From: Bacillales bacterium
Lineage (GTDB): Bacteria; Bacillota_I; Bacilli_A; RFN20; CAG-826
Direction: 5' to 3'
Length of the DNA stretch: 53,003 nucleotides
Assembly (NCBI GenBank): GCA_016287465.1
Contig: JAEEWP010000001.1
Location: 1-53,003, forward strand
Shown piece after piece: positions 12,237 to 37,157 of the stretch. The notes under the pieces are model-generated. The model did no database searches and was not told the DNA's origin. It saw only the letters and a list, made by a program, of their open reading frames with translations. The stretch's first letter is position 1; the number at the start of each line of letters is the position of its first letter. The position numbers and the translations under genes are program-made.

Positions 12237-13331
12237 ATGAAAAAACGTTTTTTATTCTGTGCCGTTTTGACTTCCCTGAGTCTTCTTTCCGGATGCCAAA
12301 AAGAGGAAGCTCCACTTATCAATATCACCTTCGGGAAACTATACGATTCCTCTCTTGAGGAGACCATCGAAAACCATCTCGTTACGGTCACTCATTCAGA
12401 GCTTACTTCATTAGTCTCTGAGAAGAAGGAATTCATCCTTCTCATCTATGACAAAAACAACACCTGCACCTGCTGGGAAGAGTTCGAGAAGACCATCCTT
12501 TCCTTCGTCAAAAGGAAGAACGCGTTGATCTACGCGATCGCCCCTACCGAGTTCGACGGAGGGCATGAGGCATTCGGTCTCAACATCGCTAAAAACGAAG
12601 AGACCATCGCGATTTTCGAGGATGGCGAAGTCAAACATCAGAAGACCACAAGCGGCGATAAAGATGGGTTCATGAAGGAAGAGAAATTCGCTAACTGGCT
12701 TAATGAGAGAGTCCACTTCTCGAAGATGCTTTATGTGAACGTGATCCAATATTTCGCCCTTTTCAATAAAGGCGAGCAGTTCACAGTTGGCTATCTTAGA
12801 AGCTCCTGTCCAGATTGCTCATATGTCGAGGATGCCGTCCTTTCCTCTTTCAACGCGAAAGACAACAACGTCTCATATGTCATCGATTGCGATGTCGATG
12901 GCATCAGACTCATGAACGGCGAATACGATGAAGAGCAATGGAACTATTTCAAAGAGGCCTCCGGTCTATCCTCTAGCGGAAGCGAGGATTTCGGATATGG
13001 CCAAGGCTATGTCCCGTCCTTCTACACCTATGCCGGATTCCGTTCCGCTACAATAGACGAACGCATTGCAGACGCTGTCGTTTATCTTAATGACAAGATC
13101 GAGAAAAACCCCGAAACAGGCGAATACTATGTGGCCGATTCTTTCTTCACGGAAGAAAGGGAAATTGTCCTTGGTTTCTTAGGCAACGCGAAGGTTGAGA
13201 CAACCGTCTTAAAGGGAATGAAAATACCTGCTGAGGATATCGAAAACGGAAACTGGAAAAAGAGCGCAGCCGCGAAATACCATAACCCTCTTCTTGAGGC
13301 TTACTTAACCGCTTACGTAGGTAAGAAATAA
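12237..13331 (+). CDS. hypothetical lipoprotein with two thioredoxin-fold-like modules (CTC and CPDC motifs)
   Basis: Start taken at MKKRFLFCAVLTSLSLLSGCQ (lipobox LSGC). The track ORF from 12081 adds an implausible Phe/Gly-rich leader. Motifs seen: NNTCTCWEEFE and SSCPDCSYVED. Confidence 0.72.
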   Translation: MKKRFLFCAVLTSLSLLSGCQKEEAPLINITFGKLYDSSLEETIENHLVTVTHSELTSLVSEKKEFILLIYDKNNTCTCWEEFEKTILSFVKRKNALIYAIAPTEFDGGHEAFGLNIAKNEETIAIFEDGEVKHQKTTSGDKDGFMKEEKFANWLNERVHFSKMLYVNVIQYFALFNKGEQFTVGYLRSSCPDCSYVEDAVLSSFNAKDNNVSYVIDCDVDGIRLMNGEYDEEQWNYFKEASGLSSSGSEDFGYGQGYVPSFYTYAGFRSATIDERIADAVVYLNDKIEKNPETGEYYVADSFFTEEREIVLGFLGNAKVETTVLKGMKIPAEDIENGNWKKSAAAKYHNPLLEAYLTAYVGKK

Positions 13332-13387: not shown

Positions 13388-14089
13388 ATGAACCCTTTTG
13401 CTAGCGTTTTCCAGCTTTTTTCCGGTAACACGGTTATTGCTTTTTTCATTGCCTTTGGCGTGGCTTTGCTAATTGGCATCGCAATGGCTTTCACCTACAA
13501 AGCCGTCAAGAAAGGCGAGGTTTACACCAAATTCATGCCGATCGCGATGATCGTCTTACCTTTGGTAATGACCTCTCTTATCGGTCTTATCAACATGCGT
13601 AACATCGAAATCGAGTCCGAAGGCTATGTCAGAGTCGCCCTCGTCGTGAGCGCAGGCATCGCCTTAACCCGTTTCAGAAGCGACAAGCTCTCGATGATTG
13701 ATATGGTCTATCTCATCGTCGCTTCCGCCCTTGGTATCGTCCTTGGTATTGGCTACGTCATCTACCCAATCATCATCGCTATCGTCGTCATTGCCATCAT
13801 GCTCATCGCCCATAAGATGAAATTCGGCGAAAACAAAGACGGTGTGTACACTCTCAAATACCAAGTTGGCGAAGATCTTGCTAACACTGAAGTCTTTGAA
13901 GAGGCTATTTCAAAGCACTGCTCCACCTATAATATGCAGAGCGTCCGCACCATCGAATACGGCCAGCTTTACGAAGTAAGATATAACGTCACCCTTAAGA
14001 AAGACGCTTCCATCAAAGCCCTTATCGATGAGGTAAGGATGCATAACGCTAACCTCAATGTCACCGTGCTCATAAGCGAAAAGAACTAA
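13388..14089 (+). CDS. DUF4956-like polytopic membrane protein
   Basis: 233 aa with 4-5 TM helices. It has the central ALTRFRSDKLSMIDMVYLIVASALGIVLGIG motif I associate with DUF4956, and a soluble C-terminal alpha/beta tail. The stop is 1 nt before the next ATG. Confidence 0.72.
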   Translation: MNPFASVFQLFSGNTVIAFFIAFGVALLIGIAMAFTYKAVKKGEVYTKFMPIAMIVLPLVMTSLIGLINMRNIEIESEGYVRVALVVSAGIALTRFRSDKLSMIDMVYLIVASALGIVLGIGYVIYPIIIAIVVIAIMLIAHKMKFGENKDGVYTLKYQVGEDLANTEVFEEAISKHCSTYNMQSVRTIEYGQLYEVRYNVTLKKDASIKALIDEVRMHNANLNVTVLISEKN

Positions 14090-14090
14090 C

Positions 14091-14825
14091 ATGGCTATCA
14101 ATTCCGGCAACTCCTTCTGTCGAATCGAGAATAAATACATCATCCCTCTTGAGAAACTGCCTCTTTTGATTGAGGCCATTTCCGAGCATGTCGAATATGA
14201 CAAGTTCGCAAAAGAAAAGGGATCCTACCAGGTCAATTCCATCTATTTCGACAATATCTATGGCGATATCCATAACAGAAACATCGCCAAACCGAAGTTC
14301 AAAGAGAAGCTCCGTCTAAGGTCCTATGGAGGAGATAAACCTATCTTCTTCTTAGAGTTCAAAGACAAGGTATTCAAGGATGTGTACAAAAGACGCATCT
14401 ACCTCAGCAAAGAAGAGGTTGATGCATTTGTCAATGATGGTGTTTTCCCTCCGAAGAACGGAGACCCAAAACACGACGAATTCATCGATGAGCTCGCTAT
14501 TTTCAAGGAAAGATATAGAGGTTCGATCGTCCCTAATACCATCATGCAGTATGATAGGGTCGCCTATATGAATAAGCCTGGCGAAGACTACCTCAGATTG
14601 ACTGTTGATAGAGACATTCGTTACAGAAGAGAGAACTTCGAAATCAACAAAATCGGCGGCAAATCCCTCCTAAAAGAAGGATATGGCATCCTTGAGATCA
14701 AGTTCATTGGAGCAATGCCCCTCTTCGTCGCAAAGGCCCTCAATGATTTAGGGCTCCAAAGGCAGACCTTCTCCAAATTCGGCTCTTCATATCTAAACGA
14801 AGCCAAAGAGGCAAGACTTCTCTAA
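14091..14825 (+). CDS. VTC-domain (polyphosphate polymerase domain / CYTH-like triphosphate tunnel) protein
   Basis: 244 aa with the alternating charged beta-strand pattern of tunnel enzymes: RIENKY, SIYFD, KLRLRSY, FLEFK, KRRIYL, RLTVDRDIRYR, ILEIKF, SKF. Confidence 0.78.
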   Translation: MAINSGNSFCRIENKYIIPLEKLPLLIEAISEHVEYDKFAKEKGSYQVNSIYFDNIYGDIHNRNIAKPKFKEKLRLRSYGGDKPIFFLEFKDKVFKDVYKRRIYLSKEEVDAFVNDGVFPPKNGDPKHDEFIDELAIFKERYRGSIVPNTIMQYDRVAYMNKPGEDYLRLTVDRDIRYRRENFEINKIGGKSLLKEGYGILEIKFIGAMPLFVAKALNDLGLQRQTFSKFGSSYLNEAKEARLL

Positions 14826-14881
14826 AGAGGTTCTTCCTCTTTTTTCTTTTACTCGACCCCTCTAAGTTCGATAATATCCCC

Positions 14882-16000
14882 ATGGCTTACATCCGTAACG
14901 TTTTGTCATCATTAAGAAAGGCTGACCTCGACTTCGCCCTCATCGACGAAGGAGACAGAATCGCCGTTGGGGTATCCGGGGGAAAAGATTCCCTTTGCCT
15001 CCTCAAGGCCCTTTCCATATACACCCTTTACTCAAAGAAGAAATTCACCGTCCACCCTATCTTCCTTGATCTCGGTTTTGACTTCGATAGAAGCGAGATC
15101 AAGAAGCTTGAAAAGTTCGCTAAAGAATGTGGCACAAAACTCTCTGTGGTTGACAGTCGTTTTGTCTTCGATATTCTCAAGGCACATAAGAAACCAGATG
15201 GACATCTCCCTTGCTCGATCTGCTCACGCATGAAGAAAGCGGCGATCAACGCCGAAGCGAAGAGACTCCACTGCAACAAAGTCGCGTTCGCTCATCATAA
15301 TGAGGACTCCATCGAAACTTTATTCATGAATATGGTTCATGGGGGAAGAGTTGCAACCTTTGATCCGAAGATGACTTTAGAGAGAGCGGGAATCACTTTC
15401 ATCAGGCCTCTTATCTACTGCCATGAGTGGTATCTCGTCCATATGGCGGAAGAAGAAAACCTTCCTATCGTTGACACTAAATGCCCTGCTAATAAACATA
15501 CTGAAAGAGAGGTCACCAAAGACTTCGTCAAGAAACTCTACAAAGACCATCCTGAAAGCGTCATGAACCTCCGTAATCTCATGAGCAACCATGAAGCCTT
15601 CAACCTCTATTTCCCGAACATCGAATACGTTCATGAGAAAAAACCTTCTTTGTCTCTCCGTCCAATCATCTCCCCTGAGGACATGAGAGGAACGAAGATC
15701 TCTTCCAAAAAGAAGAAAGAAGGCGAAGTCGATTATCTCGTTTTATGGAACCACAAGAGGGTTGGCGAAGTCTCTTATATGCATCTAAGCGCCCACAAAG
15801 TCCTCCTCTTCAATGTCTCTGGTGAGAAAGAATACGTTAAAGAAGGGATTCCGTTCCTAATGGAGAAGATCTCTGAGAGGGTCAATCCGGTTCATTTCTA
15901 TCTCTATGGCAATAAAGCCTTAGCGAACCTCATGGGCTTCAAAGAAGTAAACGTCGAAGGCAGGAAACCCCCTGCTTACATGATTACGATCAAGAAATAA
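14882..16000 (+). CDS. PP-loop ATPase of the TtcA/tRNA-thiolation type fused to an extra C-terminal domain of about 120 aa
   Basis: SGGKDS PP-loop, CSICSRMKK and CPANKHTER cysteine motifs, AFAHHNED. Residues from about 250 to 372 form an additional domain I do not recognise. Confidence 0.78.
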   Translation: MAYIRNVLSSLRKADLDFALIDEGDRIAVGVSGGKDSLCLLKALSIYTLYSKKKFTVHPIFLDLGFDFDRSEIKKLEKFAKECGTKLSVVDSRFVFDILKAHKKPDGHLPCSICSRMKKAAINAEAKRLHCNKVAFAHHNEDSIETLFMNMVHGGRVATFDPKMTLERAGITFIRPLIYCHEWYLVHMAEEENLPIVDTKCPANKHTEREVTKDFVKKLYKDHPESVMNLRNLMSNHEAFNLYFPNIEYVHEKKPSLSLRPIISPEDMRGTKISSKKKKEGEVDYLVLWNHKRVGEVSYMHLSAHKVLLFNVSGEKEYVKEGIPFLMEKISERVNPVHFYLYGNKALANLMGFKEVNVEGRKPPAYMITIKK

Positions 16001-16009
16001 AAAAGAAAA

Positions 16010-16028
16010 GGATGGCAATTTGCCACCC
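16010..16028. terminator. bidirectional intrinsic terminator between convergent genes
   Basis: GGATGGCA-ATT-TGCCACCC hairpin with an A-rich 5' flank and a T7 3' flank. Confidence 0.6.
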
Positions 16029-16056
16029 TTTTTTTAAAAATCCCTGCGAATTCCGC

Positions 16057-16860
16057 TTAATCCCTCGAAGAAGAAGCCGAACTTGAAGCGCTTGCGATCA
16101 AGAGAAGAACACGGTAGATGAGCTCAAGAAGAGCGATAACCATGTCATTGATGTACTCGATGTTGTAGAGACGGAAGAGCTCTTTGCACATTCCGATTTC
16201 TTCTTCGGTAGCAAGATTATCTCTACGCATGACCTCAATGGCCTTCTCTTGGGCCTTTTTCTCGGTCTTAAGAACGACTATCGACATGATGAAGGAGATG
16301 ACGTAGAAGAGTAAGCCTAATAAGCTTAGAAGAATCGACCATAGGCCAATCGTATGGAAGAAGATGATATCAAGGGCGATGCCTATGAGCACAAGCGGGA
16401 CAAAGGCAAGAGGACCAAAATAGATAAGAGGTGTGAGGACGATCCTTGTCTTCATGTCTTTGTCGCCTTCTTTGTCGAGGACGGCAAGTGAAGATTTTTG
16501 AGCGGCCATTGCAAGAGAAGAGATACTCTTCTTCTTAACGGTCCATCTCCTTAGACGGACTTTCTTGAAATAATGCGAATAGCTGTTTCCAAAAAGGAAA
16601 GAACCGGTGACGCTGACCCTGATGTGGTTTAGGCCTTCTTTATCAAGGAGGGTTCTAGCGATTTCTTCGCCGTTTTGTCCCCTACTATTCTGCACGCGGT
16701 TGAATCTCACGTACTTGATGGCAAGGGTGATTTCCACCCCAAGAGCGAAGATACTCACTAAGCCGATAAGGACAATGACGATGAATAAAGCGATGGCGAT
16801 GCCGTCATTGATATCGCCTAAGCCTAAAGCCTCTTCGATAAAAGCGATGAGTTGATCCAT
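16057..16860 (-). CDS. YugP-like (putative neutral zinc metallopeptidase family) membrane protein lacking the HExxH motif
   Basis: 267 aa. The architecture and several blocks parallel B. subtilis YugP as I remember it (N-terminal TM, soluble domain, C-terminal TMs). Where HExGH is expected the sequence reads AAQKSSLAV. Confidence 0.6.
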   Translation of the reverse strand: MDQLIAFIEEALGLGDINDGIAIALFIVIVLIGLVSIFALGVEITLAIKYVRFNRVQNSRGQNGEEIARTLLDKEGLNHIRVSVTGSFLFGNSYSHYFKKVRLRRWTVKKKSISSLAMAAQKSSLAVLDKEGDKDMKTRIVLTPLIYFGPLAFVPLVLIGIALDIIFFHTIGLWSILLSLLGLLFYVISFIMSIVVLKTEKKAQEKAIEVMRRDNLATEEEIGMCKELFRLYNIEYINDMVIALLELIYRVLLLIASASSSASSSRD

Positions 16861-16977
16861 AATATGTAACTCCTATTGTCTATATTGTAGCAAAAAAGAA
16901 GGCGACCTGGAAAATAATGCATAGATAAGAAAAAGCAGCGGGCTTTAGGGGCTCGCTGCTCTTTTTAGTTACCGTGA

Positions 16978-18939
16978 TTATTTAATCGTGGCAAGAGGAG
17001 TTCTGGTGCTGTTGGTGACCCATCTGTTCTCGAGATAGTTGACACGCTTGGCAAGCCAGTTGATGGTCTCTTTCTGAGCGTCTTTGCGTTCGTTGACGTT
17101 GACGAATGGCTTTCTGAGCTCGCCGGAGTTGACGCCATCACCGTTGAAGTAGCTGCCGACGTTGTTATCGGAGGCCTGGGTGGTTGTCCACTTGGTGAAG
17201 TTCTTGGCATATTCGCCATCGTAGTACTTATAGAAAGTCTTGGCTAAGCTCATCATGTTTTCGAAGACGTTGTTGTTTCTGGCGGCATTCCATTTTGGAA
17301 TGACATAGTCATTCATGAACCAACTCATCTTGCCTAAGAGCTGGAGCCACATGTTGGCGCTTCTATCCATGAAGTATGGATCTTTGGCGTTCCATCCGCT
17401 TCCAGCGGTATCTGGCTGTTCGATGAAACCTCTTCTGTTACCGAAGTTGCTGTCGAAATCCCATGGGTTGTCGTATCTGAGCTTCTTATCGCCATTTGTG
17501 GAGTTGTCATAGGACATGTAGAAGGAAGAATAACCGACATCTGGTGGTAAGCAGACGGCGTTGATGATGAAGCCTTCGGCCCAAGCGTTGCAGTCGAAGT
17601 GTTTCTCAATGGCCTGCTTGACGGTGGTTCCGCTGGCGGCATTGACGACCTGGTTGTTGGCGTCGATGTCTTTGGCTCTGTTGTTCTTGGAACCTTCGGC
17701 CAAGACGGTGAAGAGAGCCTGGAGTCTGTTCTTGATGTAAGCAACCTGGTTGCTGTTGGCATCGGTGATGTGCGCATCGGATGGGCCATCGTTGATGTCA
17801 GAGTTAAGGGTGTAGCTTGAGACGACACCTAAACCGGAGTTGGCTAAGCAGCTTTCGATGTTGTAGCTCTGCTGGTTGAAGTAGTTGCCATAGCTGATAT
17901 TGAAGGTTGGATCGCCATCGGCGCCTTTCTGGGCCTCGTTACGGGCATAGTAGTCGAGCTCAAAGTTGTAGCCGATGTCATTGGTCATGATCTTGACGGT
18001 CTCTTTTTTGCCAGTGTCTGGGTTGGTGACCTTTTGCTCTGGCTCTGGGAGGTTGATTCTGCCATCCTTGACCTCTTTGGCCTCCGCGAGCATATACATG
18101 CCCCAGTAGGTGTTATTGAGGTAAACGGAGACTGGAGTGAAGTCGGTGCACCAGACTTTGGAGTCGTCGGCGATGATGCCTCTTGCCATGCTTAAGCCTA
18201 AAGCGCTTCTGGAGACGGTGGTGTCCTTAGCGTCGGCTAAGAGGACCCACTTCTTGAATGTTTTTCCACCGTTGAGGCCAAGCATCGACTGTTTGCTGTC
18301 GAACTTGATCTGGAAGCCCTTCTTATCGAAGCCAGCGGTCTGGTTGCCTCTGACTTTCATCGTGGCGACAAGACCCTCAGTGGTGTTGTATTCGCCGGCA
18401 TTGGTGATAGAGATGGTGCCGGAGACGGTTGGTCTGGTAACGTCGTTACTTCTAGCAGCGGTCGCGAAGTTAGCGTTTGGATCGGTCGTTGGGAAAGTGA
18501 ATCTGATCTCTGGGAGAACGGAGAAGGTCTTGTCGATCTCCTCGTAATGACAGGTTGAGCACTCTCTGTATTTGACGTTGGAATTGGCGAAACGAGCGTC
18601 ATTAAGCTTGGTGCCTAAGTTCTCGGTCTTCCATGCGCCGAAAGTATGGTTGGCGGCATCCTTCTTGTCTCCGCATTCGGCACAGGCGTGGTAATGCTGA
18701 TTGGCATCGGCAGACCACTCGGTTCCATAGTTATGGACGTGAGCGGACGAGGAAGCCTTGGAAGTTCCGGCGACGCTTGAGACGGATGAGCCTGCGGTTG
18801 AGGCTAAGGATGAGGTTGATGGGGATGATGGGGCCTCTGATGTTCCTGGAGCAGCACTGCTGGCTCCGCCTTCATTGACACAGCTGACGGTCATCAAAGG
18901 GAAGGCAAGAATTGTTAGGACCTTGAAAAACTTCTTCAT
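16978..18939 (-). CDS. CotH-family kinase, lipoprotein-anchored
   Basis: Signal peptide with lipobox MTVSC and a Ser-rich linker. CotH-like blocks include GFQIKFDSK, VLLADAKDTTVSRSALG, VYLNNTYWGMYMLAE and DNPWDFDSNFGN. I prefer the start at MKKFF (18939) from SD spacing. The track ORF begins at 18948. Confidence 0.85.
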   Translation of the reverse strand: MKKFFKVLTILAFPLMTVSCVNEGGASSAAPGTSEAPSSPSTSSLASTAGSSVSSVAGTSKASSSAHVHNYGTEWSADANQHYHACAECGDKKDAANHTFGAWKTENLGTKLNDARFANSNVKYRECSTCHYEEIDKTFSVLPEIRFTFPTTDPNANFATAARSNDVTRPTVSGTISITNAGEYNTTEGLVATMKVRGNQTAGFDKKGFQIKFDSKQSMLGLNGGKTFKKWVLLADAKDTTVSRSALGLSMARGIIADDSKVWCTDFTPVSVYLNNTYWGMYMLAEAKEVKDGRINLPEPEQKVTNPDTGKKETVKIMTNDIGYNFELDYYARNEAQKGADGDPTFNISYGNYFNQQSYNIESCLANSGLGVVSSYTLNSDINDGPSDAHITDANSNQVAYIKNRLQALFTVLAEGSKNNRAKDIDANNQVVNAASGTTVKQAIEKHFDCNAWAEGFIINAVCLPPDVGYSSFYMSYDNSTNGDKKLRYDNPWDFDSNFGNRRGFIEQPDTAGSGWNAKDPYFMDRSANMWLQLLGKMSWFMNDYVIPKWNAARNNNVFENMMSLAKTFYKYYDGEYAKNFTKWTTTQASDNNVGSYFNGDGVNSGELRKPFVNVNERKDAQKETINWLAKRVNYLENRWVTNSTRTPLATIK

Positions 18940-19069: not shown

Positions 19070-19354
19070 TTACTTGAATAAATCCGAATGGGTGCCGGTT
19101 CTAACTAAATACAGGATAACGAACTCATTTGAGTATTTGTAAATAAGCAGCCAGTCAGGTTCAATATGCAGCTCGCGGCAATTTTTGTATTCTTTGGATG
19201 GCTGAAGAGGATGGTCGCGATATTTCTCCGGTATAGTCTCGCCATTCTGAAGATAGACGAGAACCTCCTTAAAGGCCTCAGGGTTCAATCCCCTTTTAAT
19301 GCATAACTTAAAATCTTTCTTAAACTTGCTGGATTGGCGAATGCCATAGATCAT
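19070..19354 (-). CDS. type II toxin, YafQ/RelE family mRNA interferase
   Basis: 94 aa. The end DHPLQPSKEYKNCRELHIEPDWLLIYKYSNEFVILYLVRTGTHSDLF is typical of YafQ. It overlaps the antitoxin gene by 4 nt. Confidence 0.85.
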   Translation of the reverse strand: MIYGIRQSSKFKKDFKLCIKRGLNPEAFKEVLVYLQNGETIPEKYRDHPLQPSKEYKNCRELHIEPDWLLIYKYSNEFVILYLVRTGTHSDLFK

Positions 19355-19620
19355 TTAAGCAAATCCTCCATTAATTCATCGACGCTGTTAAAGGTTTTTC
19401 CCTTTTCTGGGTGCTTTTCCATATCATCGATTTCCTTAATGGCCTCAATGGTTTCCTCATTTGGGATATCGGCGTGAAGTTCAAAAGGAATGCTTTTCGT
19501 CCTGATGACTTGGTTATAGAAAAGGGTGATCGCTGTGGTCGGGGTCATTCCAAGCTTTGAAAAAACCTGTTCAGCTTTCTTTTTTGTCTCCCCATCTATT
19601 CTTATATTGATATTCGCCAT
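19351..19620 (-). CDS. type II antitoxin, RelB/DinJ family
   Basis: 89 aa. MANINIRIDGETKKKAEQVFSKLGMTPTTAITLFYNQV is a DinJ-type ribbon-helix-helix N-terminus. Confidence 0.85.
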   Translation of the reverse strand: MANINIRIDGETKKKAEQVFSKLGMTPTTAITLFYNQVIRTKSIPFELHADIPNEETIEAIKEIDDMEKHPEKGKTFNSVDELMEDLLK

Positions 19621-24995: not shown

Positions 24996-25787
24996 TTAAT
25001 TGTCTTTGATGAGGTAGCTCTCCCAACTGGAAGGGAGCTCAATCGAAAGCTTTTCCTTCTCCACCGAAAGATTGAAATCGATTTCATAACTCAAGGAGCC
25101 TTCGCTGTCGCTGGTAGTAAGGAAGAACTTCGCGGACTCGAAAGCGAAATCCTCATAGACGAAACAGTAGCGGAATAAGAACTCACTCCCTTCTTCTTGA
25201 GTAGAACGTTCGCTGATGTTGATGGTTAAGTTCCCATCGCCACTCGAGTAGTATTCTGTCTCGGATTTGAATTCAGGCTGTCCCTCGTGGTGGAATTTCG
25301 AAACGATATGGGAGGCCTTATTCGGATTCATTAGATCTTCAGCATATGAAACTGCAGGCTCGAACACTTCCGAATAGAGGTGATCGAATTCATCCTTGTG
25401 TCCCTTGTAATCGACGGTAATCGGATTCCCGTTTCCAAAAGTAGTTGTTTCATCAAAATCAAAGAGCAACTTCTCATAAGCTAGGTCATTCGCAAGATAG
25501 GCAGACCTCGTTTCGACTCCGTCTACATTCATGAAAAGACATTTTTCCCCGTCTTCGTTCACGGCGAGAGAGAGGAATTCTTTGGTGGTATTCTCTTTTC
25601 TCGTTTTGCTGTCATAGCGGACGGTCTTTCCTTCCCCAACAAACCTATAGTTTTTGATTTCGCTATTCTTGGAAGCGATATCAAACTTGAGCCAGTCGAT
25701 TTTGGCGGTATCAATGATTCTTTGGGATCCGCAGGACGCTAGGAGGGTCATCGCTCCTAAGCCAAGAAGTATATTAAGTTTTTTCAT
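24996..25787 (-). CDS. lipoprotein, paralogue family member 1
   Basis: 263 aa, lipobox LLASCG. Shares IKNY, YYSSGDGNLTI and the C-terminal LPSSWE with the next three genes. Confidence 0.85.
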   Translation of the reverse strand: MKKLNILLGLGAMTLLASCGSQRIIDTAKIDWLKFDIASKNSEIKNYRFVGEGKTVRYDSKTRKENTTKEFLSLAVNEDGEKCLFMNVDGVETRSAYLANDLAYEKLLFDFDETTTFGNGNPITVDYKGHKDEFDHLYSEVFEPAVSYAEDLMNPNKASHIVSKFHHEGQPEFKSETEYYSSGDGNLTINISERSTQEEGSEFLFRYCFVYEDFAFESAKFFLTTSDSEGSLSYEIDFNLSVEKEKLSIELPSSWESYLIKDN

Positions 25788-25877
25788 GTTTGTTTTTCTC
25801 CAGCGATAAGAATAGGCCTTTTGAAAAACAAAAGTCTAGGAAAACCACAAAAAAGATAGACGCCGCCGAAAGAAAAA

Positions 25878-25900
25878 AGTCAGGCATTTTTTGCCTGACT
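25878..25900 (-). terminator. intrinsic terminator after lipoprotein paralogue 2
   Basis: AGTCAGGCA-TTTTT-TGCCTGACT, followed by T6 on the minus strand. Confidence 0.65.
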
Positions 25901-25918
25901 TAATTGGATTAAGCTTGT

Positions 25919-26698
25919 TTACTCCCCGGTGTATAGATGGCCTTCCCAATTGGGAGGAATGACGATTGTGAGGCTATCCATCTTCTCAAAATCGAAACTG
26001 TATTCGAACTTCATTTCTATCTCCTCCGTGGAATAAGCGTGCTTCATGCTCATTCCCTTGAAGACGTAGTCCTCGTAATTGATTTCGATCTCATTCGTCG
26101 TGTTGTCACCTCTGACGGTCGAAGTTTCGTTGATCTTAACGGTCAGCTGGCCATCTTTGTCCGAGTAATATTTCGTCACCGTATCGAAAGTCTGGCCGTC
26201 GTTATGAAACAATCCAACCACGGACAAGATCTTATATGGGTCCAAAAGGGTATCGACCACCGAGGTGATTGGCTCTAAATCGTCTGCCAAGACTTCGTCG
26301 AATTCATTCTTATGCGTTTTCCGGTCGATAACGGTGATTTTTCCATCATACCTGGAGTAGGAATCGCAATATATTAGTTTGTCATATGTTTCGTCATTGA
26401 CCAGATAATAATCACAAACGTTCGTGCCTGACTGATAGGTCGTGTGGGCTTGCTTTTCGCCTTTTTCATTAACGCGGATGAACATCTCATCGACTCTGGT
26501 TATTTCCTCTTTCGTCGCTTTGTCGATTTCGACTTGTTTGCCGCTTCCGCTGAACATGTAGTTTTTGACTTCGTTCTTTTTAAGAACTATCGCATCCTTG
26601 AGAGCGTTGATTTTGTCGGTTTCGGTTAAGAGTTTAGGCCCGCAAGAAGTAAGAAGCGTAAGGGAGGCTAAGCCAAATAATATCTTCTGTTTTTTCAT
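25919..26698 (-). CDS. lipoprotein, paralogue family member 2
   Basis: 259 aa, lipobox LLTSCG. Motifs VKNY, KYYSDKDGQLTV, IPPNWE. Confidence 0.85.
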   Translation of the reverse strand: MKKQKILFGLASLTLLTSCGPKLLTETDKINALKDAIVLKKNEVKNYMFSGSGKQVEIDKATKEEITRVDEMFIRVNEKGEKQAHTTYQSGTNVCDYYLVNDETYDKLIYCDSYSRYDGKITVIDRKTHKNEFDEVLADDLEPITSVVDTLLDPYKILSVVGLFHNDGQTFDTVTKYYSDKDGQLTVKINETSTVRGDNTTNEIEINYEDYVFKGMSMKHAYSTEEIEMKFEYSFDFEKMDSLTIVIPPNWEGHLYTGE

Positions 26699-26786
26699 TC
26701 TGTTTTTCCTCGACTTATCAAGGATACTCTTTTTAAAGAAGCAAAATCCAGCCCCTTTGCGCAGGATTTGCTGGGGATAATGAAAA

Positions 26787-26806
26787 AGCCGGGCGTTGAC
26801 CCGGCT
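26787..26806 (-). terminator. intrinsic terminator after lipoprotein paralogue 3
   Basis: AGCCGGG-CGTTGA-CCCGGCT, followed by T5 on the minus strand. Confidence 0.65.
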
Positions 26807-26821
26807 AGATGGATAGGTTGA

Positions 26822-27631
26822 TTAGGCCGCTTCTTTGTTGATTAAGCTTTCCCAACCGCTTGGGAGTTCGATCTTGACCTCATCCTTGACGGTGAAGGTG
26901 ATCTCGGCTTTGCTCTTGTTGCCTTTGTTGGATTCGCCTTCGATGACGGCGCTCTTCCAGTAATAGTTGTCATAGACAACGGTGTAGTTTTCACTGACGG
27001 CGTATTCATCATCGGACTTGGCGCCTTCTTTGGCTTTGGCGCTGATCTTCAAAGTGAGGTTGCCATCGCCTTTGGAATAGTACTTGGATTCGACGGTGTA
27101 GTCGGTTTCGCTATCATCGGCAGTCGCTTCAAGCAAATCCTCGGCACTGATGGTGTTCGGATCAAGGAACATCGAGGTGTACATGGTTGGAGCAAGGAAA
27201 TAGAGGGCCGCGAAGCCGAAGGTAAGCTCATTGCCTTCATAGCCGTAGACGGTCTTCTCGTTCTTCTTGGTATCCTCATCATACATATCGAGATAGAGGA
27301 CCTGCTTATACTTGGCGTCTTTGACGAGATAGATTGTGCTCTCTTCTTTCTTGTCTCCCTCTTTGGAAACTGACTTGAGGTACATCTCCTCATTGGCGTT
27401 GGCGCGGAAGACCATTTCGCTTTCCATGGTGACGTTCTTCTTCTCGGAATCGTCATAGGAGGTGGAACTGCTCTTCATGGTCATCTCATAGTTCTTGATG
27501 TCTTTGGTTTTGGCAGAGATGGCGTCTTTGGTCTCTTTCAACTTGGCTGGATCGGTGACTTCGGCTCCGTCGCCGCAGGATGAAAGCATGAATGCGGGTA
27601 ATAGGACTAATAAAGAAAACTTCTTTTTCAT
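26822..27631 (-). CDS. lipoprotein, paralogue family member 3
   Basis: 269 aa, lipobox MLSSCG. Motifs IKNY, KYYSKGDGNLTL, LPSGWESLI. Confidence 0.85.
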   Translation of the reverse strand: MKKKFSLLVLLPAFMLSSCGDGAEVTDPAKLKETKDAISAKTKDIKNYEMTMKSSSTSYDDSEKKNVTMESEMVFRANANEEMYLKSVSKEGDKKEESTIYLVKDAKYKQVLYLDMYDEDTKKNEKTVYGYEGNELTFGFAALYFLAPTMYTSMFLDPNTISAEDLLEATADDSETDYTVESKYYSKGDGNLTLKISAKAKEGAKSDDEYAVSENYTVVYDNYYWKSAVIEGESNKGNKSKAEITFTVKDEVKIELPSGWESLINKEAA

Positions 27632-27753
27632 TAGGTATATTTCCTTCCTTTGCTTACAATTTACCCCTTAACTCGAAAGAAATCTAGTGAAGTGCTTGCA
27701 TTTTTGCTATTTTTTGTAGCGAGCGATTTTCTCTTTTCTTTTTAAAAAGAAAA

Positions 27754-27773
27754 AGCCAGGCTAGTGCCCGGCT
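27754..27773 (-). terminator. intrinsic terminator after lipoprotein paralogue 4
   Basis: AGCCAGGC-TAGT-GCCCGGCT (one mismatch) abutting the stop codon, followed by a T-rich run on the minus strand. Confidence 0.5.
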
Positions 27774-28576
27774 TAATAATAAGTGCCGCTTGGTTCTCGG
27801 ATTAGGCTTTCCCAACCAGAAGGAAGGGTGACTGTGTAATTAAATAGCGTCTTGTAGGTGAGCTCGAATTTCTCGGAGCTTTTGTATGTTGCATTGGTAC
27901 TTTCGCTCTCATATACGGCATCTTTCAGTAGGTAATTTTCGTATGTCATGCGGGTATGGCTTGTACCAGTTCCGTTCCACACTTCGACGCTGGACCTCTC
28001 AATGGTGAGGCTGCCATCCCCTTTGGAGTAATACTTCGCCGGAGAGGCGTCGGTGTTTTCAATGAGAGCTTGATCGATATAGTAAGGGTCGCGGGCTTCC
28101 TCATAAAGCATTATCGGATACGCCAGGATTCCAGAGAGGCCACCTTCCGAAGAATAACCGCCGCTTCCCACTGCATAGACATCTATGTCTTTGGCGGCGG
28201 TGTTCGGACTACCCATTTCGATGTAACACACTTTCTCGTATGTTGGGTCTTCCACCATATACAGCGCGTATTTGTATTTTGCCTTATCGCCCGCAGCCTC
28301 AATCTCGACTGTCCCTGCGAGATACATGTTGTCTTTCTTGTCGCCGCGGTAAATAAGATCCCAAGAATAAGCGTTTTTATTCCCTTCGCCCCTCTCCTCG
28401 GAAATGGAGGCTTTGACGTGGGCCTCAAATCCCTTAGGTTCGTTCATTTTGTCGGATATGGCCTTTTCAAGCTCAATCACTCTTGCTTTGTCCGTGATCT
28501 CTTCGCCATAGGATTGTTGGCAAGAAGAAAGGACGGTCATGGCTAATAACGGCAGTATCGCGTATTTCTTTTTCAT
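27773..28576 (-). CDS. lipoprotein, paralogue family member 4
   Basis: 267 aa, lipobox VLSSCQ. Motifs KYYSKGDGSLTI, LPSGWESLI. Confidence 0.85.
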   Translation of the reverse strand: MKKKYAILPLLAMTVLSSCQQSYGEEITDKARVIELEKAISDKMNEPKGFEAHVKASISEERGEGNKNAYSWDLIYRGDKKDNMYLAGTVEIEAAGDKAKYKYALYMVEDPTYEKVCYIEMGSPNTAAKDIDVYAVGSGGYSSEGGLSGILAYPIMLYEEARDPYYIDQALIENTDASPAKYYSKGDGSLTIERSSVEVWNGTGTSHTRMTYENYLLKDAVYESESTNATYKSSEKFELTYKTLFNYTVTLPSGWESLIREPSGTYY

Positions 28577-36089: not shown

Positions 36090-37157
36090 TTAGACATGAC
36101 GCCTATCTCGGCCTGTCTCTTGGTAATACCTATCTTTATCGCCATACATCATGGCGTCAGATTCTCTAAGAAGCTCTTCGATGTCCTTATCCCCAGAAAG
36201 GTTAAGGCCATAACCGATAGCGCATGAATATTTTGTCTCGCTGACGTTCTTTTTGATTCTTTCTATGAGGGCAAGAACTTCCTCTTCTTGGACCCTTCTA
36301 CAAACGATGATGAATTCGTCTCCGCCTACACGATATCCCGATTCTTTTCCTTTGAGGGCCCGGCGGAAGCAAGAAGACAACGCCGTTAGAGCCTCATCCC
36401 CTGCATCATGGCCTTCGTTGTCATTGATGGCTTTGAGACCATTCATATCAATGGAGACGAGAGCGCTGATGCTCTTAGGATCACGGGATATGTCCGCGAA
36501 ATAAGCATGACGATTAAGTAACCCCGTTAAGGAATCCTTCTTTGTCAGCTGAAGTACCGTGAATTCATAGTAGGCGAATAAGGCGATAGCGATTGAAACG
36601 CAGAAGACCTTGGCATAATCGGCTTTGAAGATGAAAGGCAGGACGAGGCCTGATCCAAGAGCGAAGGCCAAGAAGGCAATCGGAATCATCTCGATAGGTC
36701 TTTTGTTGCTTCTTTTGATAAGAAGGAAGATAAGAAGGACGCTATAAAAGCCAACAAAGACATAAGGCATGACCCAAAGAGGTCCATTAACTTTAACGTT
36801 ATCCTGATTGATGGTTGAGACAACGCCAGTGAATATGGAAACGACATCGAGAATTAAGAGAGCGAAGGCAGGAAGATAAATAAACCAGCGCATCTTTTTG
36901 ACAAGAGCGTGCGTGATAAGAGCAATGATGAATGGCGTTGCGCTATATCTAATGGCCATCAAGACATTCCTCAAAGAAACGTTATCGGTCGAGAATTCGA
37001 TATAGACGATGATCGAAAGCAAGAAAATGGAGACGATCAAAACATGCAGGCGGATGATGGACTTCTTCCCTAAGAAGACCGTGGTCGTCAAAGATATGGC
37101 AAAGGCCAAAAGGATGAGGATTAAAGCCCAATTTTGAAGCAAATAATCTTTAAACAT
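36090..37157 (-). CDS. membrane-anchored diguanylate cyclase (GGDEF domain)
   Basis: 355 aa. About 6 N-terminal TM helices are followed by GLLNRHAY..., IDMNGLKAINDNEGH.AGD and YRVGGDEFII. Confidence 0.88.
   Translation of the reverse strand: MFKDYLLQNWALILILLAFAISLTTTVFLGKKSIIRLHVLIVSIFLLSIIVYIEFSTDNVSLRNVLMAIRYSATPFIIALITHALVKKMRWFIYLPAFALLILDVVSIFTGVVSTINQDNVKVNGPLWVMPYVFVGFYSVLLIFLLIKRSNKRPIEMIPIAFLAFALGSGLVLPFIFKADYAKVFCVSIAIALFAYYEFTVLQLTKKDSLTGLLNRHAYFADISRDPKSISALVSIDMNGLKAINDNEGHDAGDEALTALSSCFRRALKGKESGYRVGGDEFIIVCRRVQEEEVLALIERIKKNVSETKYSCAIGYGLNLSGDKDIEELLRESDAMMYGDKDRYYQETGRDRRHV

What the first reader, a model, noticed from the sequence alone, without database searches (positions are those of the whole stretch)
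13388..18939. DUF4956 + VTC-like tunnel enzyme, clustered with a PP-loop fusion, a dead YugP homologue and a surface CotH kinase
A DUF4956-like polytopic membrane protein (13388..14089) and a VTC-domain protein (14091..14825) are separated by one nucleotide (TAA-C-ATG), so they are translationally coupled. The VTC domain is a CYTH-like triphosphate tunnel. In eukaryotes it is the catalytic module of the Vtc4 polyphosphate polymerase, which feeds its product through the transmembrane part of the VTC complex.

Two kb away and convergent lies a lipoprotein-anchored, extracytoplasmic CotH-family atypical kinase (16978..18939). Between them are a TtcA-like PP-loop ATPase with an extra domain and a YugP-like membrane protein that has lost HExxH.

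Bacterial polyP is classically made by PPK1/PPK2. As far as I know, no function has been shown for bacterial VTC-domain/DUF4956 pairs. My recollection, which needs checking, is that VTC, DUF4956 and CotH genes recur as neighbours in Bacillota and Bacteroidota.

Inference: this could be a membrane-coupled synthesis and export module for polyphosphate or another tunnel-enzyme product, with DUF4956 in the channel role. It might supply or cooperate with an outward-facing CotH kinase, which would otherwise lack a phosphoryl donor outside the cell.
Basis: partly seen in the sequence, partly recalled or inferred. Interest (0 to 1): 0.75.

Follow-up and report, generated by a model that had tools for sequence, protein, structure and literature searches.

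The report
Bacterial Vtc4-like enzyme with membrane partner
This rumen bacterium carries a widespread, already-annotated gene pair: a yeast-Vtc4-like "polyphosphate polymerase" tunnel enzyme coupled to an MgtC-like membrane protein. It lies next to a surface CotH kinase, a known but biochemically unsolved association, while the PP-loop and YugP-like genes in between are bystanders.

Summary
DUF4956 (13388-14089) and a VTC-domain protein (14091-14825) are separated by one base, and all five family calls hold.

The VTC protein is a confident Vtc4-type tunnel and keeps the residues that align with Vtc4 K200, R264, R266, K281 and K294.

The pair is the real unit. DUF4956 adjoins VTC in 82 of 84 first-round loci and all 5 plasmid loci, at least 596 species representatives carry a relative, and the family has about 6,400 clusters at E<=1e-10.

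DUF4956 models as five membrane helices plus an ACT-like domain. That architecture is MgtC-like, and nothing resembles the Vtc1 channel.

The PP-loop and catalytically dead YugP-like genes are shallow neighbours.

CotH adjacency is convergent and kept only in close relatives. However, co-directional VTC-DUF4956-CotH clusters recur in Planococcus, Pseudobutyrivibrio and Enterococcus plasmids, and are published for pel loci and C. perfringens NELoc-2.

Among similar VTC loci the usual third gene is a Cthe_2159 lipoprotein (33 of 80).

So this is a new member of a known, functionally unsolved module. Polyphosphate export that feeds CotH remains an untested speculation.

The parts
13388..14089 (+). 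DUF4956 membrane protein (233 aa). It has five predicted TM helices (15-40, 50-72, 79-99, 103-121, 125-143) and a cytoplasmic C-terminal beta-alpha-beta-beta-alpha-beta (ACT-like) domain at 154-229. R95-F96-R97 and G116 are invariant across the family. This is a core part of the module.
   Evidence: Pfam PF16316 E 9e-7; 40/40 relatives hit DUF4956 and 14/40 also hit MgtC weakly; AF2 model pLDDT 74.7; Foldseek matches only for the ACT-like domain; invariant columns.
14091..14825 (+). Stand-alone VTC-domain protein (244 aa), a Vtc4-type triphosphate tunnel and predicted polyP-polymerase-like enzyme. It has no signal peptide or TM segment. This is a core part of the module.
   Evidence: Pfam PF09359 137.9 bits; AF2 pLDDT 89.6; best Foldseek hits are the Vtc4 tunnel, TM 0.70-0.74; HMM alignment to Vtc4 and invariant charged residues; NCBI names homologues 'polyphosphate polymerase domain-containing protein'.
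14087..14093 (+). TAA-C-ATG junction: one base separates the DUF4956 stop codon from the VTC start codon.
   Evidence: Sequence read. Spacing of -17 to +4 nt is kept in relatives down to 43% identity.
16978..18939 (-). Probable surface lipoprotein with a CotH kinase-family domain (about residues 198-638) and an N-terminal Cys/His-rich module (62-136). It converges on the VTC unit and is a candidate functional partner, not a co-transcribed gene.
   Evidence: Pfam PF08757 68.5 bits; signal peptide ending in TVSC; family-invariant G201-N202, N278, D470, Y477, D481 and W496-D497 are retained; adjacency kept in L089-L092, L001 and L006; the triad recurs elsewhere.
12237..13331 (+). Lipoprotein (364 aa; lipobox LSGC; CxxC-type motif CPDC; no Pfam family) lying 56 nt upstream of DUF4956 on the same strand. 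It is conserved upstream of the pair only in close relatives, so its membership in the module is uncertain.
   Evidence: it precedes the pair in L001, L005, L006, L007, L089 and L091 but not in L002 or L099-L101.
14882..16000 (+). TtcA-like PP-loop protein (SGGKDS motif, CxxC at 111-114) with a C-terminal extension of about 130 aa that matches no family. Judged a bystander (tRNA-thiolation type).
   Evidence: Pfam PF01171 and NCBIfam TtcA at 152 bits, below the 272 cut-off. It is next to the pair in only 5 of the first 84 loci, 4 of them close relatives. A hairpin with T-run at 14824-14842 and a promoter-like site at 14848-14875 precede it.
16006..16032 (.). 12-bp stem-loop flanked by A/T runs between the convergent PP-loop and YugP-like genes, probably a bidirectional terminator.
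   Evidence: This is a pattern match only; total counts are close to shuffle expectation.
16057..16860 (-). YugP/Zn_peptidase_2 homologue (267 aa, about 3 TM segments) lacking the HExxH zinc site. It is a variable insertion between CotH and the PP-loop gene and is not part of the module.
   Evidence: Pfam 104.7 bits; no HExxH; present in the window and L006 but absent in L089-L092.

Best explanation
The functional unit is a two-gene module. It consists of an MgtC-like polytopic membrane protein (DUF4956) and a soluble Vtc4-type triphosphate-tunnel enzyme, translated as a tightly coupled pair.

The most likely mechanism is as follows. The tunnel enzyme binds a nucleoside triphosphate and transfers its terminal phosphate onto a growing phosphate chain, which is Vtc4-like polyP polymerase chemistry. 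It does this while held at the cytoplasmic face of the membrane by DUF4956. The invariant R95-F-R97 loop and the ACT-like domain of DUF4956 would dock or regulate it.

The module serves a cell-envelope process. Across lineages it is wired to an extracytoplasmic partner and often to a two-component system. The partner is a Cthe_2159 beta-helix lipoprotein in most Clostridia, and a secreted or lipoprotein CotH kinase in others and in this lineage.

Shown here: family membership, fold, tunnel residues, near-obligate pairing, and recurrent partners. Inferred: polymerase activity, physical contact between the two proteins, and any hand-over of product to the outside. The PP-loop and YugP-like genes are unrelated neighbours.
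For: VTC:
- Pfam 137.9 bits.
- Confident model whose best matches are the Vtc4 catalytic tunnel.
- The HMM alignment places K15, R75/R77, K91 and K100/R102 on Vtc4 K200, R264/R266, K281 and K294/R296. All are invariant in 24 diverse homologues, together with E202/K204 and S228/K229.
- R264, R266 and E426 are the residues mutated to inactivate yeast VTC (PMC9911596).

Pairing:
- DUF4956 is adjacent and co-directional in 82/84 loci and in 5/5 plasmid or chromid loci.
- The pair is 1 nt apart here.

Membrane partner:
- Five TM helices plus an ACT-like domain.
- R-F-R is invariant in 40 sequences.

Envelope link:
- 33 loci have a Cthe_2159 protein, directly downstream in 26. 33 of the 34 proteins have a signal-type N-terminal hydrophobic segment, most followed by a lipobox Cys.
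- CotH sits in co-directional clusters in Planococcus, Pseudobutyrivibrio and E. faecalis plasmids and in a Treponema locus.
- The association is published for pel loci and NELoc-2.
- Deleting the DUF4956 or CotH homologue alters Pel level and aggregation in S. intermedius (PMC12345266).
Against: - No bacterial VTC-domain protein has been assayed.
- The VTC-homologue deletion in S. intermedius gave no clear phenotype.
- The equivalence of E202 and S228/K229 to Vtc4 E426 and S457/K458 could not be shown by a significant alignment.
- DUF4956 resembles MgtC, which is known as a regulatory membrane protein, and not the Vtc1 channel.
- No VTC-DUF4956 fusions were seen.
- Here CotH is convergent, separated by one or two unrelated genes, and adjacent only in close relatives.
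Confidence: 0.55

Rival explanations
1. Export and donor model. DUF4956 oligomerises into a conduit, and polyP made by VTC is threaded to the cell surface. There it serves as the phosphoryl donor or polyanionic cofactor for the extracytoplasmic CotH kinase, or is held by Cthe_2159-type lipoproteins.
For: - The third genes are secreted or lipoprotein-type proteins: 33 of 34 Cthe_2159 proteins and the window CotH.
- Co-directional CotH-VTC-DUF4956 clusters lie inside exopolysaccharide gene sets.
- An extracellular kinase lacks an obvious ATP supply (inference).
- Yeast VTC couples synthesis to translocation (PMC9911596).
- DUF4956 has invariant arginines at the predicted cytoplasmic membrane interface.
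Against: - There is no structural similarity of DUF4956 to Vtc1 or to any channel.
- The MgtC-like architecture points to a regulator.
- CotH enzymes are known to use ATP (established knowledge of B. subtilis CotH, not re-checked here).
- Many pairs have neither CotH nor Cthe_2159 nearby.
- The S. intermedius authors favour cytoplasmic polyP.
Confidence: 0.15
2. Cytoplasmic polyP or regulatory model. VTC makes short or long polyP, or cleaves a triphosphate, in the cytoplasm. DUF4956 is an MgtC-like sensor and regulator that tethers VTC or is controlled by it, and modulates another membrane machine such as a polysaccharide synthase, an ATPase or a sensor kinase. CotH is linked only indirectly.
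For: - MgtC-like architecture and weak MgtC hits in 14/40 members.
- MgtC acts by binding other membrane proteins (as cited in PMC12345266).
- Two-component genes frequently flank the pair.
- The DUF4956 deletion raises Pel while the CotH deletion lowers it.
- Other TTM enzymes are hydrolases or cyclases (hits 14-34).
Against: - The best structural and sequence matches are to the polymerase Vtc4, not to hydrolase TTMs.
- The recurrent co-directional secreted partner is not explained.
- The MgtC relationship is statistically weak (E 0.048, probability 1%).
Confidence: 0.25
3. In this window the proximity of CotH to the pair is coincidental. CotH simply sits between rbfA and the pair in one genus, and the five genes have no common function.
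For: - Convergent orientation, with separate terminator-like hairpins.
- Variable insertions (the YugP-like gene and the YafQ/RelB pair) lie around CotH.
- CotH homologues at 65-67% identity lie elsewhere, with no VTC within 10 kb.
- The sister clade has the pair without CotH.
- Only 2 of 80 similar VTC loci have CotH nearby.
Against: The same three families form co-directional clusters in at least four unrelated lineages on independent replicons. Chance co-location of exactly these families here is therefore less likely than a retained or re-acquired functional link.
Confidence: 0.35

Closest known systems
Yeast/eukaryotic VTC complex (Vtc4 TTM catalytic domain with the Vtc1/2/3 transmembrane channel)
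   Same: The tunnel fold matches (TM 0.70-0.74). Residues that align with Vtc4 K200, R264, R266, K281 and K294 are conserved. The soluble tunnel enzyme is genetically tied to a membrane protein.
   Different: The bacterial protein is a stand-alone 244-aa domain without SPX or the DUF202 TM helices. Its partner DUF4956 has five TM helices plus an ACT-like domain and no detectable similarity to Vtc1. Neither activity nor translocation has been shown.
CotH / 'polyphosphate polymerase' / DUF4956 accessory gene set of Gram-positive pel loci and C. perfringens NELoc-2 (bioRxiv 10.1101/768473; PMC12345266; PMC2879425)
   Same: The same three protein families are involved. CotH is secreted or surface-anchored in a genomic context with no sporulation genes in the window.
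   Different: Those loci are co-directional operons embedded in polysaccharide-synthesis clusters. Here the gene order of the pair is inverted (DUF4956 before VTC), CotH is convergent and separated by unrelated genes, and no glycosyltransferase or pel genes turned up among the window ORFs I scanned. The window VTC is only 24-27% identical to the Planococcus and Pseudobutyrivibrio plasmid VTCs.
VTC-DUF4956-Cthe_2159 lipoprotein operon of Clostridia (seen here; I found no description of it in the searched literature)
   Same: The core pair is the same, and these VTC sequences are the most similar to the window's outside its own lineage (33-39% identity). The third component is a lipoprotein.
   Different: The third gene is a carbohydrate-binding beta-helix protein (PF14262) rather than CotH, the order is VTC before DUF4956, and two-component genes often lie upstream.
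MgtC/SapB family (e.g. Salmonella MgtC, E. coli YhiD)
   Same: The architecture matches: about five TM helices followed by a small ACT-like cytoplasmic domain. 14 of 40 DUF4956 proteins give weak MgtC hits. The alignment to YhiD over TM3-TM4 is collinear.
   Different: The window protein itself has no MgtC hit, and the profile comparison is not significant. MgtC proteins are not known to pair with a tunnel enzyme.
Bacillus subtilis CotH spore-coat protein kinase
   Same: Pfam CotH domain and the family-invariant motifs are present.
   Different: This protein is lipoprotein-anchored and extracytoplasmic, carries an added N-terminal Cys/His module, and has long insertions, with the Pfam match stretching over 440 residues. 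The sequence is too divergent to reach solved CotH structures.

Membership tests
VTC domain / Vtc4-type triphosphate tunnel (PF09359) | Profile match above the curated threshold over the whole domain | tested here: met
   137.9 bits against a cut-off of 23; residues 11-234 match profile positions 2-231 of 235.
VTC domain / Vtc4-type triphosphate tunnel (PF09359) | Closed beta-barrel tunnel fold closest to Vtc4 | tested here: met
   AF2 pLDDT 89.6. The top 13 Foldseek hits are Vtc4/Vtc2/Vtc3 tunnels with TM 0.64-0.74, ahead of generic CYTH enzymes.
VTC domain / Vtc4-type triphosphate tunnel (PF09359) | Tunnel basic residues equivalent to Vtc4 K200, R264, R266, K281, K294 | tested here: met
   K15, R75, R77, K91 and K100 align to them (chain index is residue number +3) and are invariant in 24 homologues. 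The role of R264/R266 is confirmed in PMC9911596.
VTC domain / Vtc4-type triphosphate tunnel (PF09359) | Equivalents of Vtc4 E426 and S457/K458 on the C-terminal strands | tested here: inconclusive
   E202-x-K204 and S228-K229 are invariant, but neither a single-sequence nor a profile search gave a significant alignment of this part to Vtc4. The K458 numbering is from my own recollection.
Eukaryotic VTC complex | SPX regulatory domain and DUF202 transmembrane helices, with Vtc1-type channel subunits | tested here: not met
   The protein is a stand-alone 244-aa domain. The 150 best family representatives are 229-356 aa. DUF4956 shows no structural match to Vtc1.
Eukaryotic VTC complex | PolyP synthesis from ATP coupled to translocation | not testable with these tools
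   This needs an enzyme assay and reconstitution.
DUF4956 (PF16316) | Profile match, plus adjacency to a VTC gene | tested here: met
   The window protein scores E 9e-7 and 29.2 bits, 1.4 bits under the cut-off. Its 96%-identical homologue carries the precomputed PF16316 call. 40/40 aligned relatives match. Adjacent to VTC in 82/84 loci.
MgtC family (PF02308) | Sequence relationship to MgtC, and the five-TM plus ACT-like architecture | tested here: inconclusive
   The architecture is met. 14/40 relatives give weak hits, best E 2e-5, but the window protein gives none. hhalign against E. coli YhiD gives E 0.048 and probability 1%.
CotH kinase family (PF08757) | Profile match and retention of family-invariant polar residues | tested here: met
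   68.5 bits against a cut-off of 23.8. G201-N202, N278, D470, Y477, D481 and W496-D497 are invariant across five CotH proteins at 14-33% identity. Their assignment as catalytic residues is inferred.
CotH kinase family (PF08757) | Spore-coat localisation and ATP-dependent Ser/Thr kinase activity | not testable with these tools
   The signal peptide and lipobox argue for a surface rather than a spore-coat location. Activity is untested.
CotH-VTC-DUF4956 triad (pel / NELoc-2 type) | All three genes in one co-directional operon next to polysaccharide-synthesis genes | tested here: not met
   All three genes are present, but CotH is convergent and 2.15 kb away. No glycosyltransferase or pel genes appeared among the window ORFs scanned.
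YugP / Zn_peptidase_2 (PF04298) | HExxH zinc-binding motif | tested here: not met
   The profile match is 104.7 bits, but there is no HExxH and only 3 His residues in 267 aa.
TtcA tRNA 2-thiocytidine synthetase | PP-loop SGGxDS, Fe-S cysteines, and the equivalog score | tested here: inconclusive
   SGGKDS at residue 32 and CSIC at 111 are present. The NCBIfam TtcA score is 152 bits, below the 272 cut-off. The extra C-terminal region of about 130 aa has no family.

The most novel reading that the evidence does not exclude
VTC-DUF4956 is a third bacterial route to polyphosphate, independent of PPK1/PPK2. It would act as a synthase-translocase that places polyP, or transfers phosphate, on the outer face of the membrane. 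There interchangeable surface partners use it: CotH kinases would phosphorylate proteins or exopolysaccharides without extracellular ATP, and Cthe_2159 beta-helix lipoproteins would bind the polyanion.
Probability: 0.15. Interest if true: 0.85.

Novelty: new member of a known kind. Interest (0 to 1): 0.42.

Why it matters
Bacterial polyphosphate is attributed to PPK1/PPK2. A Vtc4-type polymerase working in thousands of Bacillota, including gut and rumen species and pathogens (C. perfringens NELoc-2, the Streptococcus milleri group, an E. faecalis plasmid), would add a new enzyme class to bacterial phosphate metabolism.

It might also explain how secreted CotH kinases are supplied with a phosphoryl donor. 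The module is small (two genes), has clear catalytic residues to mutate, and has genetic phenotypes in one species, so the question is directly testable.

This particular locus adds little beyond another example. The useful new points are comparative:
- The pair is the invariant core.
- The third component is interchangeable (CotH or a Cthe_2159 lipoprotein) and probably extracytoplasmic wherever it could be checked.
- The membrane partner is MgtC-like rather than Vtc1-like.

Tried and rejected
1. Aligning the C-terminal strands of the VTC protein to Vtc4, both with a single sequence and with a 16-sequence profile, gave only sub-threshold or spurious (DARPin) matches. The E426/K458 mapping therefore stays inferred.
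2. Searching the window CotH or a 10-sequence profile of it against solved structures did not reach the CotH entries. Only the N-terminal Cys/His module matched 9qa6.
3. Local iterative HMM searches for CotH proved insensitive. They missed the Pfam-confirmed CotH on the E. faecalis plasmid. I replaced them with a motif screen derived from five divergent CotH proteins plus Pfam scans of 20 flanking ORFs. The figure of 2 in 80 rests on these and could still miss very aberrant CotH genes.
4. hhalign of the DUF4956 profile against E. coli YhiD was not significant.
5. I looked for natural VTC-DUF4956 fusions and found none in 98 loci or among the 150 best of 11,508 family representatives.
6. I tested whether the four tandem ORFs of about 265 aa at 24996-28576 are YugP paralogues. 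They are not; they are lipoproteins.
7. The 2016 PNAS CotH kinase paper could not be retrieved by DOI or by my guessed PMC id. Statements about the B. subtilis CotH residues and its use of ATP are from my own knowledge.
8. The promoter/terminator scan is not enriched over shuffles and is used only as a weak hint about transcription units.

Full report
**1. Observation**

DUF4956 ends with TAA at 14087-14089, a single C follows, and the VTC gene starts at 14091.

Pfam supports every family call:
- DUF4956: E 9e-7, 29.2 bits, just under the 30.6 cut-off.
- VTC: 137.9 bits.
- PP-loop: 51.3 bits.
- Zn_peptidase_2/YugP: 104.7 bits.
- CotH: 68.5 bits.

NCBIfam adds a TtcA-like hit of 152 bits, below the equivalog cut-off of 272.

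The YugP-like protein has no HExxH motif and only three histidines. The PP-loop protein keeps SGGKDS and a CxxC. The CotH protein has a signal peptide ending in TVSC followed by a Ser/Ala/Pro-rich linker. An upstream 364-aa protein (12237-13331) has a classical LSGC lipobox.

CotH and the YugP-like gene share the minus strand and converge on the plus-strand genes lipoprotein, DUF4956, VTC and PP-loop.

The window matches rumen MAGs labelled 'Bacilli bacterium' and 'uncultured Erysipelotrichaceae bacterium' at 98% VTC identity.

**2. The VTC protein**

With a 24-sequence alignment, AlphaFold gives a confident model with mean pLDDT 89.6. Its 13 best PDB matches are the tunnel domains of yeast Vtc4, Vtc2 and Vtc3, with TM-scores of 0.64-0.74. 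These rank ahead of generic CYTH/TTM triphosphatases and cyclases.

A profile of the family aligns to Vtc4 at E 5e-16. In the alignment to chain 5iiq_A, the chain index equals the residue number plus 3. On that basis:
- Window K15 falls on Vtc4 K200.
- R75 and R77 fall on R264 and R266.
- K91 falls on K281.
- K100 and R102 fall on K294 and R296.

All of these are invariant in 24 homologues down to 32% identity. So are E13, K71/K73, E89, K93, Y154, R169/T171/D173, E202/K204 and S228/K229; R11 and R156 are conserved in at least 90%.

R264, R266 and E426 are the residues mutated to inactivate yeast VTC (PMC9911596).

I could not obtain a significant alignment of the last two strands to Vtc4. The equivalence of E202 to E426, and of S228/K229 to S457/K458, therefore remains an inference.

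The protein is a stand-alone domain. The family has 11,508 clusters (50% identity) at E<=1e-3 and 6,445 at E<=1e-10, and the 150 best are all 229-356 aa. NCBI already names these proteins 'polyphosphate polymerase domain-containing protein'.

**3. The membrane partner**

The DUF4956 model (pLDDT 74.7) has five helices in the membrane region and a C-terminal beta-alpha-beta-beta-alpha-beta domain. Only that domain finds structural neighbours, and these are weak. They are ACT-type regulatory domains of Ser33, SerB2 and phenylalanine hydroxylase, plus PII-like and other ferredoxin-like folds. Nothing resembles Vtc1.

By the positive-inside rule the topology is N-terminus outside and C-terminus inside (my inference). 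That puts the ACT-like domain and the invariant R95-F96-R97 motif in the cytoplasm, where the VTC protein is.

The architecture of five TM helices plus an ACT-like domain is that of MgtC, a resemblance also noted for the S. intermedius homologue (PMC12345266). Here 14 of 40 diverse DUF4956 proteins give weak Pfam MgtC hits, with a best E of 2e-5. The window protein gives none, and a profile comparison with E. coli YhiD is collinear but not significant. I therefore describe DUF4956 as MgtC-like without filing it as a member.

**4. What is conserved around it**

In the 84 loci first analysed (the 80 best species loci plus four loci from relatives), a DUF4956 gene is present in 82. Wherever both genes survived my gene calls, they are adjacent and co-directional. 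The usual order is VTC then DUF4956, mostly with an overlap of a few bases or a short gap.

The window's lineage has the reverse order, with spacing from -17 to +4 nt down to 43% identity. All five hits in the plasmid collection also have the pair. No fusions were seen.

The other window genes are shallow neighbours:
- The PP-loop gene is next to the pair in only 5 of the first 84 loci. Four of these are close relatives and one is an unrelated Clostridium with the gene on the opposite strand.
- The YugP-like gene is present only in the window and its species representative. It is absent from relatives with 78-84% CotH identity, where CotH directly faces the PP-loop gene.
- A hairpin with T-run and a promoter-like site lie between VTC and the PP-loop gene. 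A 12-bp hairpin separates the convergent units. This is weak evidence.

**5. CotH and other third components**

In the window's immediate clade the arrangement is conserved: CotH facing PP-loop, VTC, DUF4956 and the lipoprotein.

It is not conserved further out:
- At 43-53% VTC identity the pair sits between a heavy-metal P-type ATPase and a co-directional Mem_trans permease, with no CotH.
- CotH homologues at 65-67% identity lie elsewhere, with no VTC within 10 kb.

Among the 80 species loci most similar to this VTC, CotH is nearby only in the window's own species and in one Treponema. I established this with HMMs, with a motif screen that recovers all verified CotH proteins, and with Pfam scans of 20 flanking ORFs. 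My HMM search alone was insensitive: it missed one Pfam-confirmed CotH.

The commonest third gene is a Cthe_2159 (PF14262) beta-helix protein. It occurs in 33 loci and lies directly downstream and co-directional in 26. Of the 34 such proteins, 33 have a signal-type N-terminal hydrophobic segment, and most are followed by a lipobox Cys. OmpR-type regulator and sensor-kinase genes flank the pair in about 19 loci.

In more divergent VTC lineages the CotH triad sits in one co-directional gene cluster:
- Planococcus plasmid: VTC, DUF4956, CotH, hypothetical, HEAT-repeat protein, glycosyltransferase. This is the layout listed for C. perfringens NELoc-2.
- Pseudobutyrivibrio pNP95: CotH, VTC, DUF4956, inside an exopolysaccharide cluster.
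- E. faecalis plasmid: VTC, DUF4956, response regulator, histidine kinase, CotH.

The triad was also described as an accessory set of Gram-positive pel operons in streptococci, clostridia and bifidobacteria (bioRxiv 10.1101/768473). In S. intermedius, deleting the DUF4956 or the CotH homologue changes Pel levels and aggregation, while deleting the VTC homologue shows no clear effect (PMC12345266).

**6. The CotH protein itself**

The Pfam match spans residues 198-638 with long insertions. In an alignment of five CotH proteins at 14-33% identity, the invariant positions are all present in the window protein:
- G201-N202, within K-V-R-G-N.
- L223-G224.
- N278.
- P310, Y379 and D452.
- D470.
- Y477 and D481.
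- W496-D497.
- L632.

The D470-to-D497 spacing of 27 residues is close to the 23 that I recall between the two catalytic aspartates of B. subtilis CotH. That is my recollection, and the paper was not retrievable.

The enzyme therefore looks catalytically competent, but this is an inference.

Residues 62-136 form a Cys/His-rich module that matches repeats in the solved 'IgA protease' 9qa6 at E 1e-12.

**7. Interpretation**

The evidence supports a two-gene module: a Vtc4-type tunnel enzyme with a complete set of tunnel residues, tied to an MgtC-like membrane protein. This module is repeatedly wired to a probable extracytoplasmic protein (CotH or Cthe_2159) and often to a two-component system.

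The most economical mechanism is membrane-associated polyP-polymerase-type chemistry serving a cell-envelope function. I give this about 0.55 confidence.

It has no direct support, and DUF4956 does not look like the Vtc1 channel. I put it at about 0.15.

A purely cytoplasmic or regulatory role for the pair is a serious rival. For this window specifically, the CotH adjacency may be only a lineage-level accident.

**8. Novelty**

The gene pair, its NCBI naming and its association with CotH are already in the literature and in annotation. No biochemical function has been published in the library searched.

This locus is a new member of a known, unsolved kind. It has an inverted gene order and a non-operonic CotH.

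The comparative points that I did not find described are:
- The Cthe_2159 lipoprotein as the dominant alternative third component.
- The near-obligate nature of the pair.
- The absence of any Vtc1-like feature in DUF4956.

Noticed in passing
window 24996-28576 (-): Four tandem paralogous lipoprotein genes (263, 259, 269 and 267 aa). They are 25-37% identical to each other, have lipoboxes ending in SC, and match no Pfam family. Relative L091 appears to have one 267-aa gene, also without a Pfam family, at the corresponding place (homology not tested).
   Followed up: partly
window 18534-18758 (-), residues 62-136 of the CotH protein: A Cys/His-rich module (H-x-H-x-Y-G-T-E-W ... H-Y-H-A-C ... C-G-D-K-K-D ... 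H-T-F ... C-x-x-C-H-Y) matches two repeats near the C-terminus of the solved 'IgA protease' 9qa6 (E 1e-12). It is probably a small metal-binding surface module shared by gut Bacillota surface proteins.
   Followed up: partly
window 19070-19620 (-): A YafQ-toxin / RelB-antitoxin pair lies between rbfA and CotH. It is present in relative L089 but absent in L091, so it is a mobile insertion.
   Followed up: partly
L002-L004, L099-L101 (sister clade, 43-53% VTC identity): The DUF4956>VTC pair is followed co-directionally by a Mem_trans (PF03547, auxin-efflux-carrier family) permease. It is preceded divergently by a CopA-like P-type ATPase with HMA domains. This context is conserved across several species (L100 ends at the VTC gene, so only its upstream side is seen).
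   Followed up: no
L013-L084 (33 loci), e.g. L041:12260-14110: A VTC>DUF4956>Cthe_2159-lipoprotein operon is the dominant arrangement in rumen and gut Clostridia, often with OmpR-type regulator and sensor-kinase genes upstream. I found no description of this operon in the searched literature.
   Followed up: partly
L096 (E. faecalis plasmid LR962858) 7476-14020: An unannotated E. faecalis plasmid carries amidase > VTC > DUF4956 > response regulator > histidine kinase > CotH in one direction.
   Followed up: partly
L080 (Clostridium saudiense), next to DUF4956: A second, unrelated lineage also has a PP-loop (TtcA-like cluster) gene adjacent to the pair, on the opposite strand. This may be chance.
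   Followed up: no
window 14882-16000 (+), residues about 240-372: The TtcA-like PP-loop protein has a C-terminal extension of about 130 aa with no Pfam or NCBIfam match.
   Followed up: no
window 36090-37157 (-): A GGDEF-domain protein lies in the window. GGDEF and HD-domain genes also flank the CotH paralogue or orthologue in L085 and L087.
   Followed up: no
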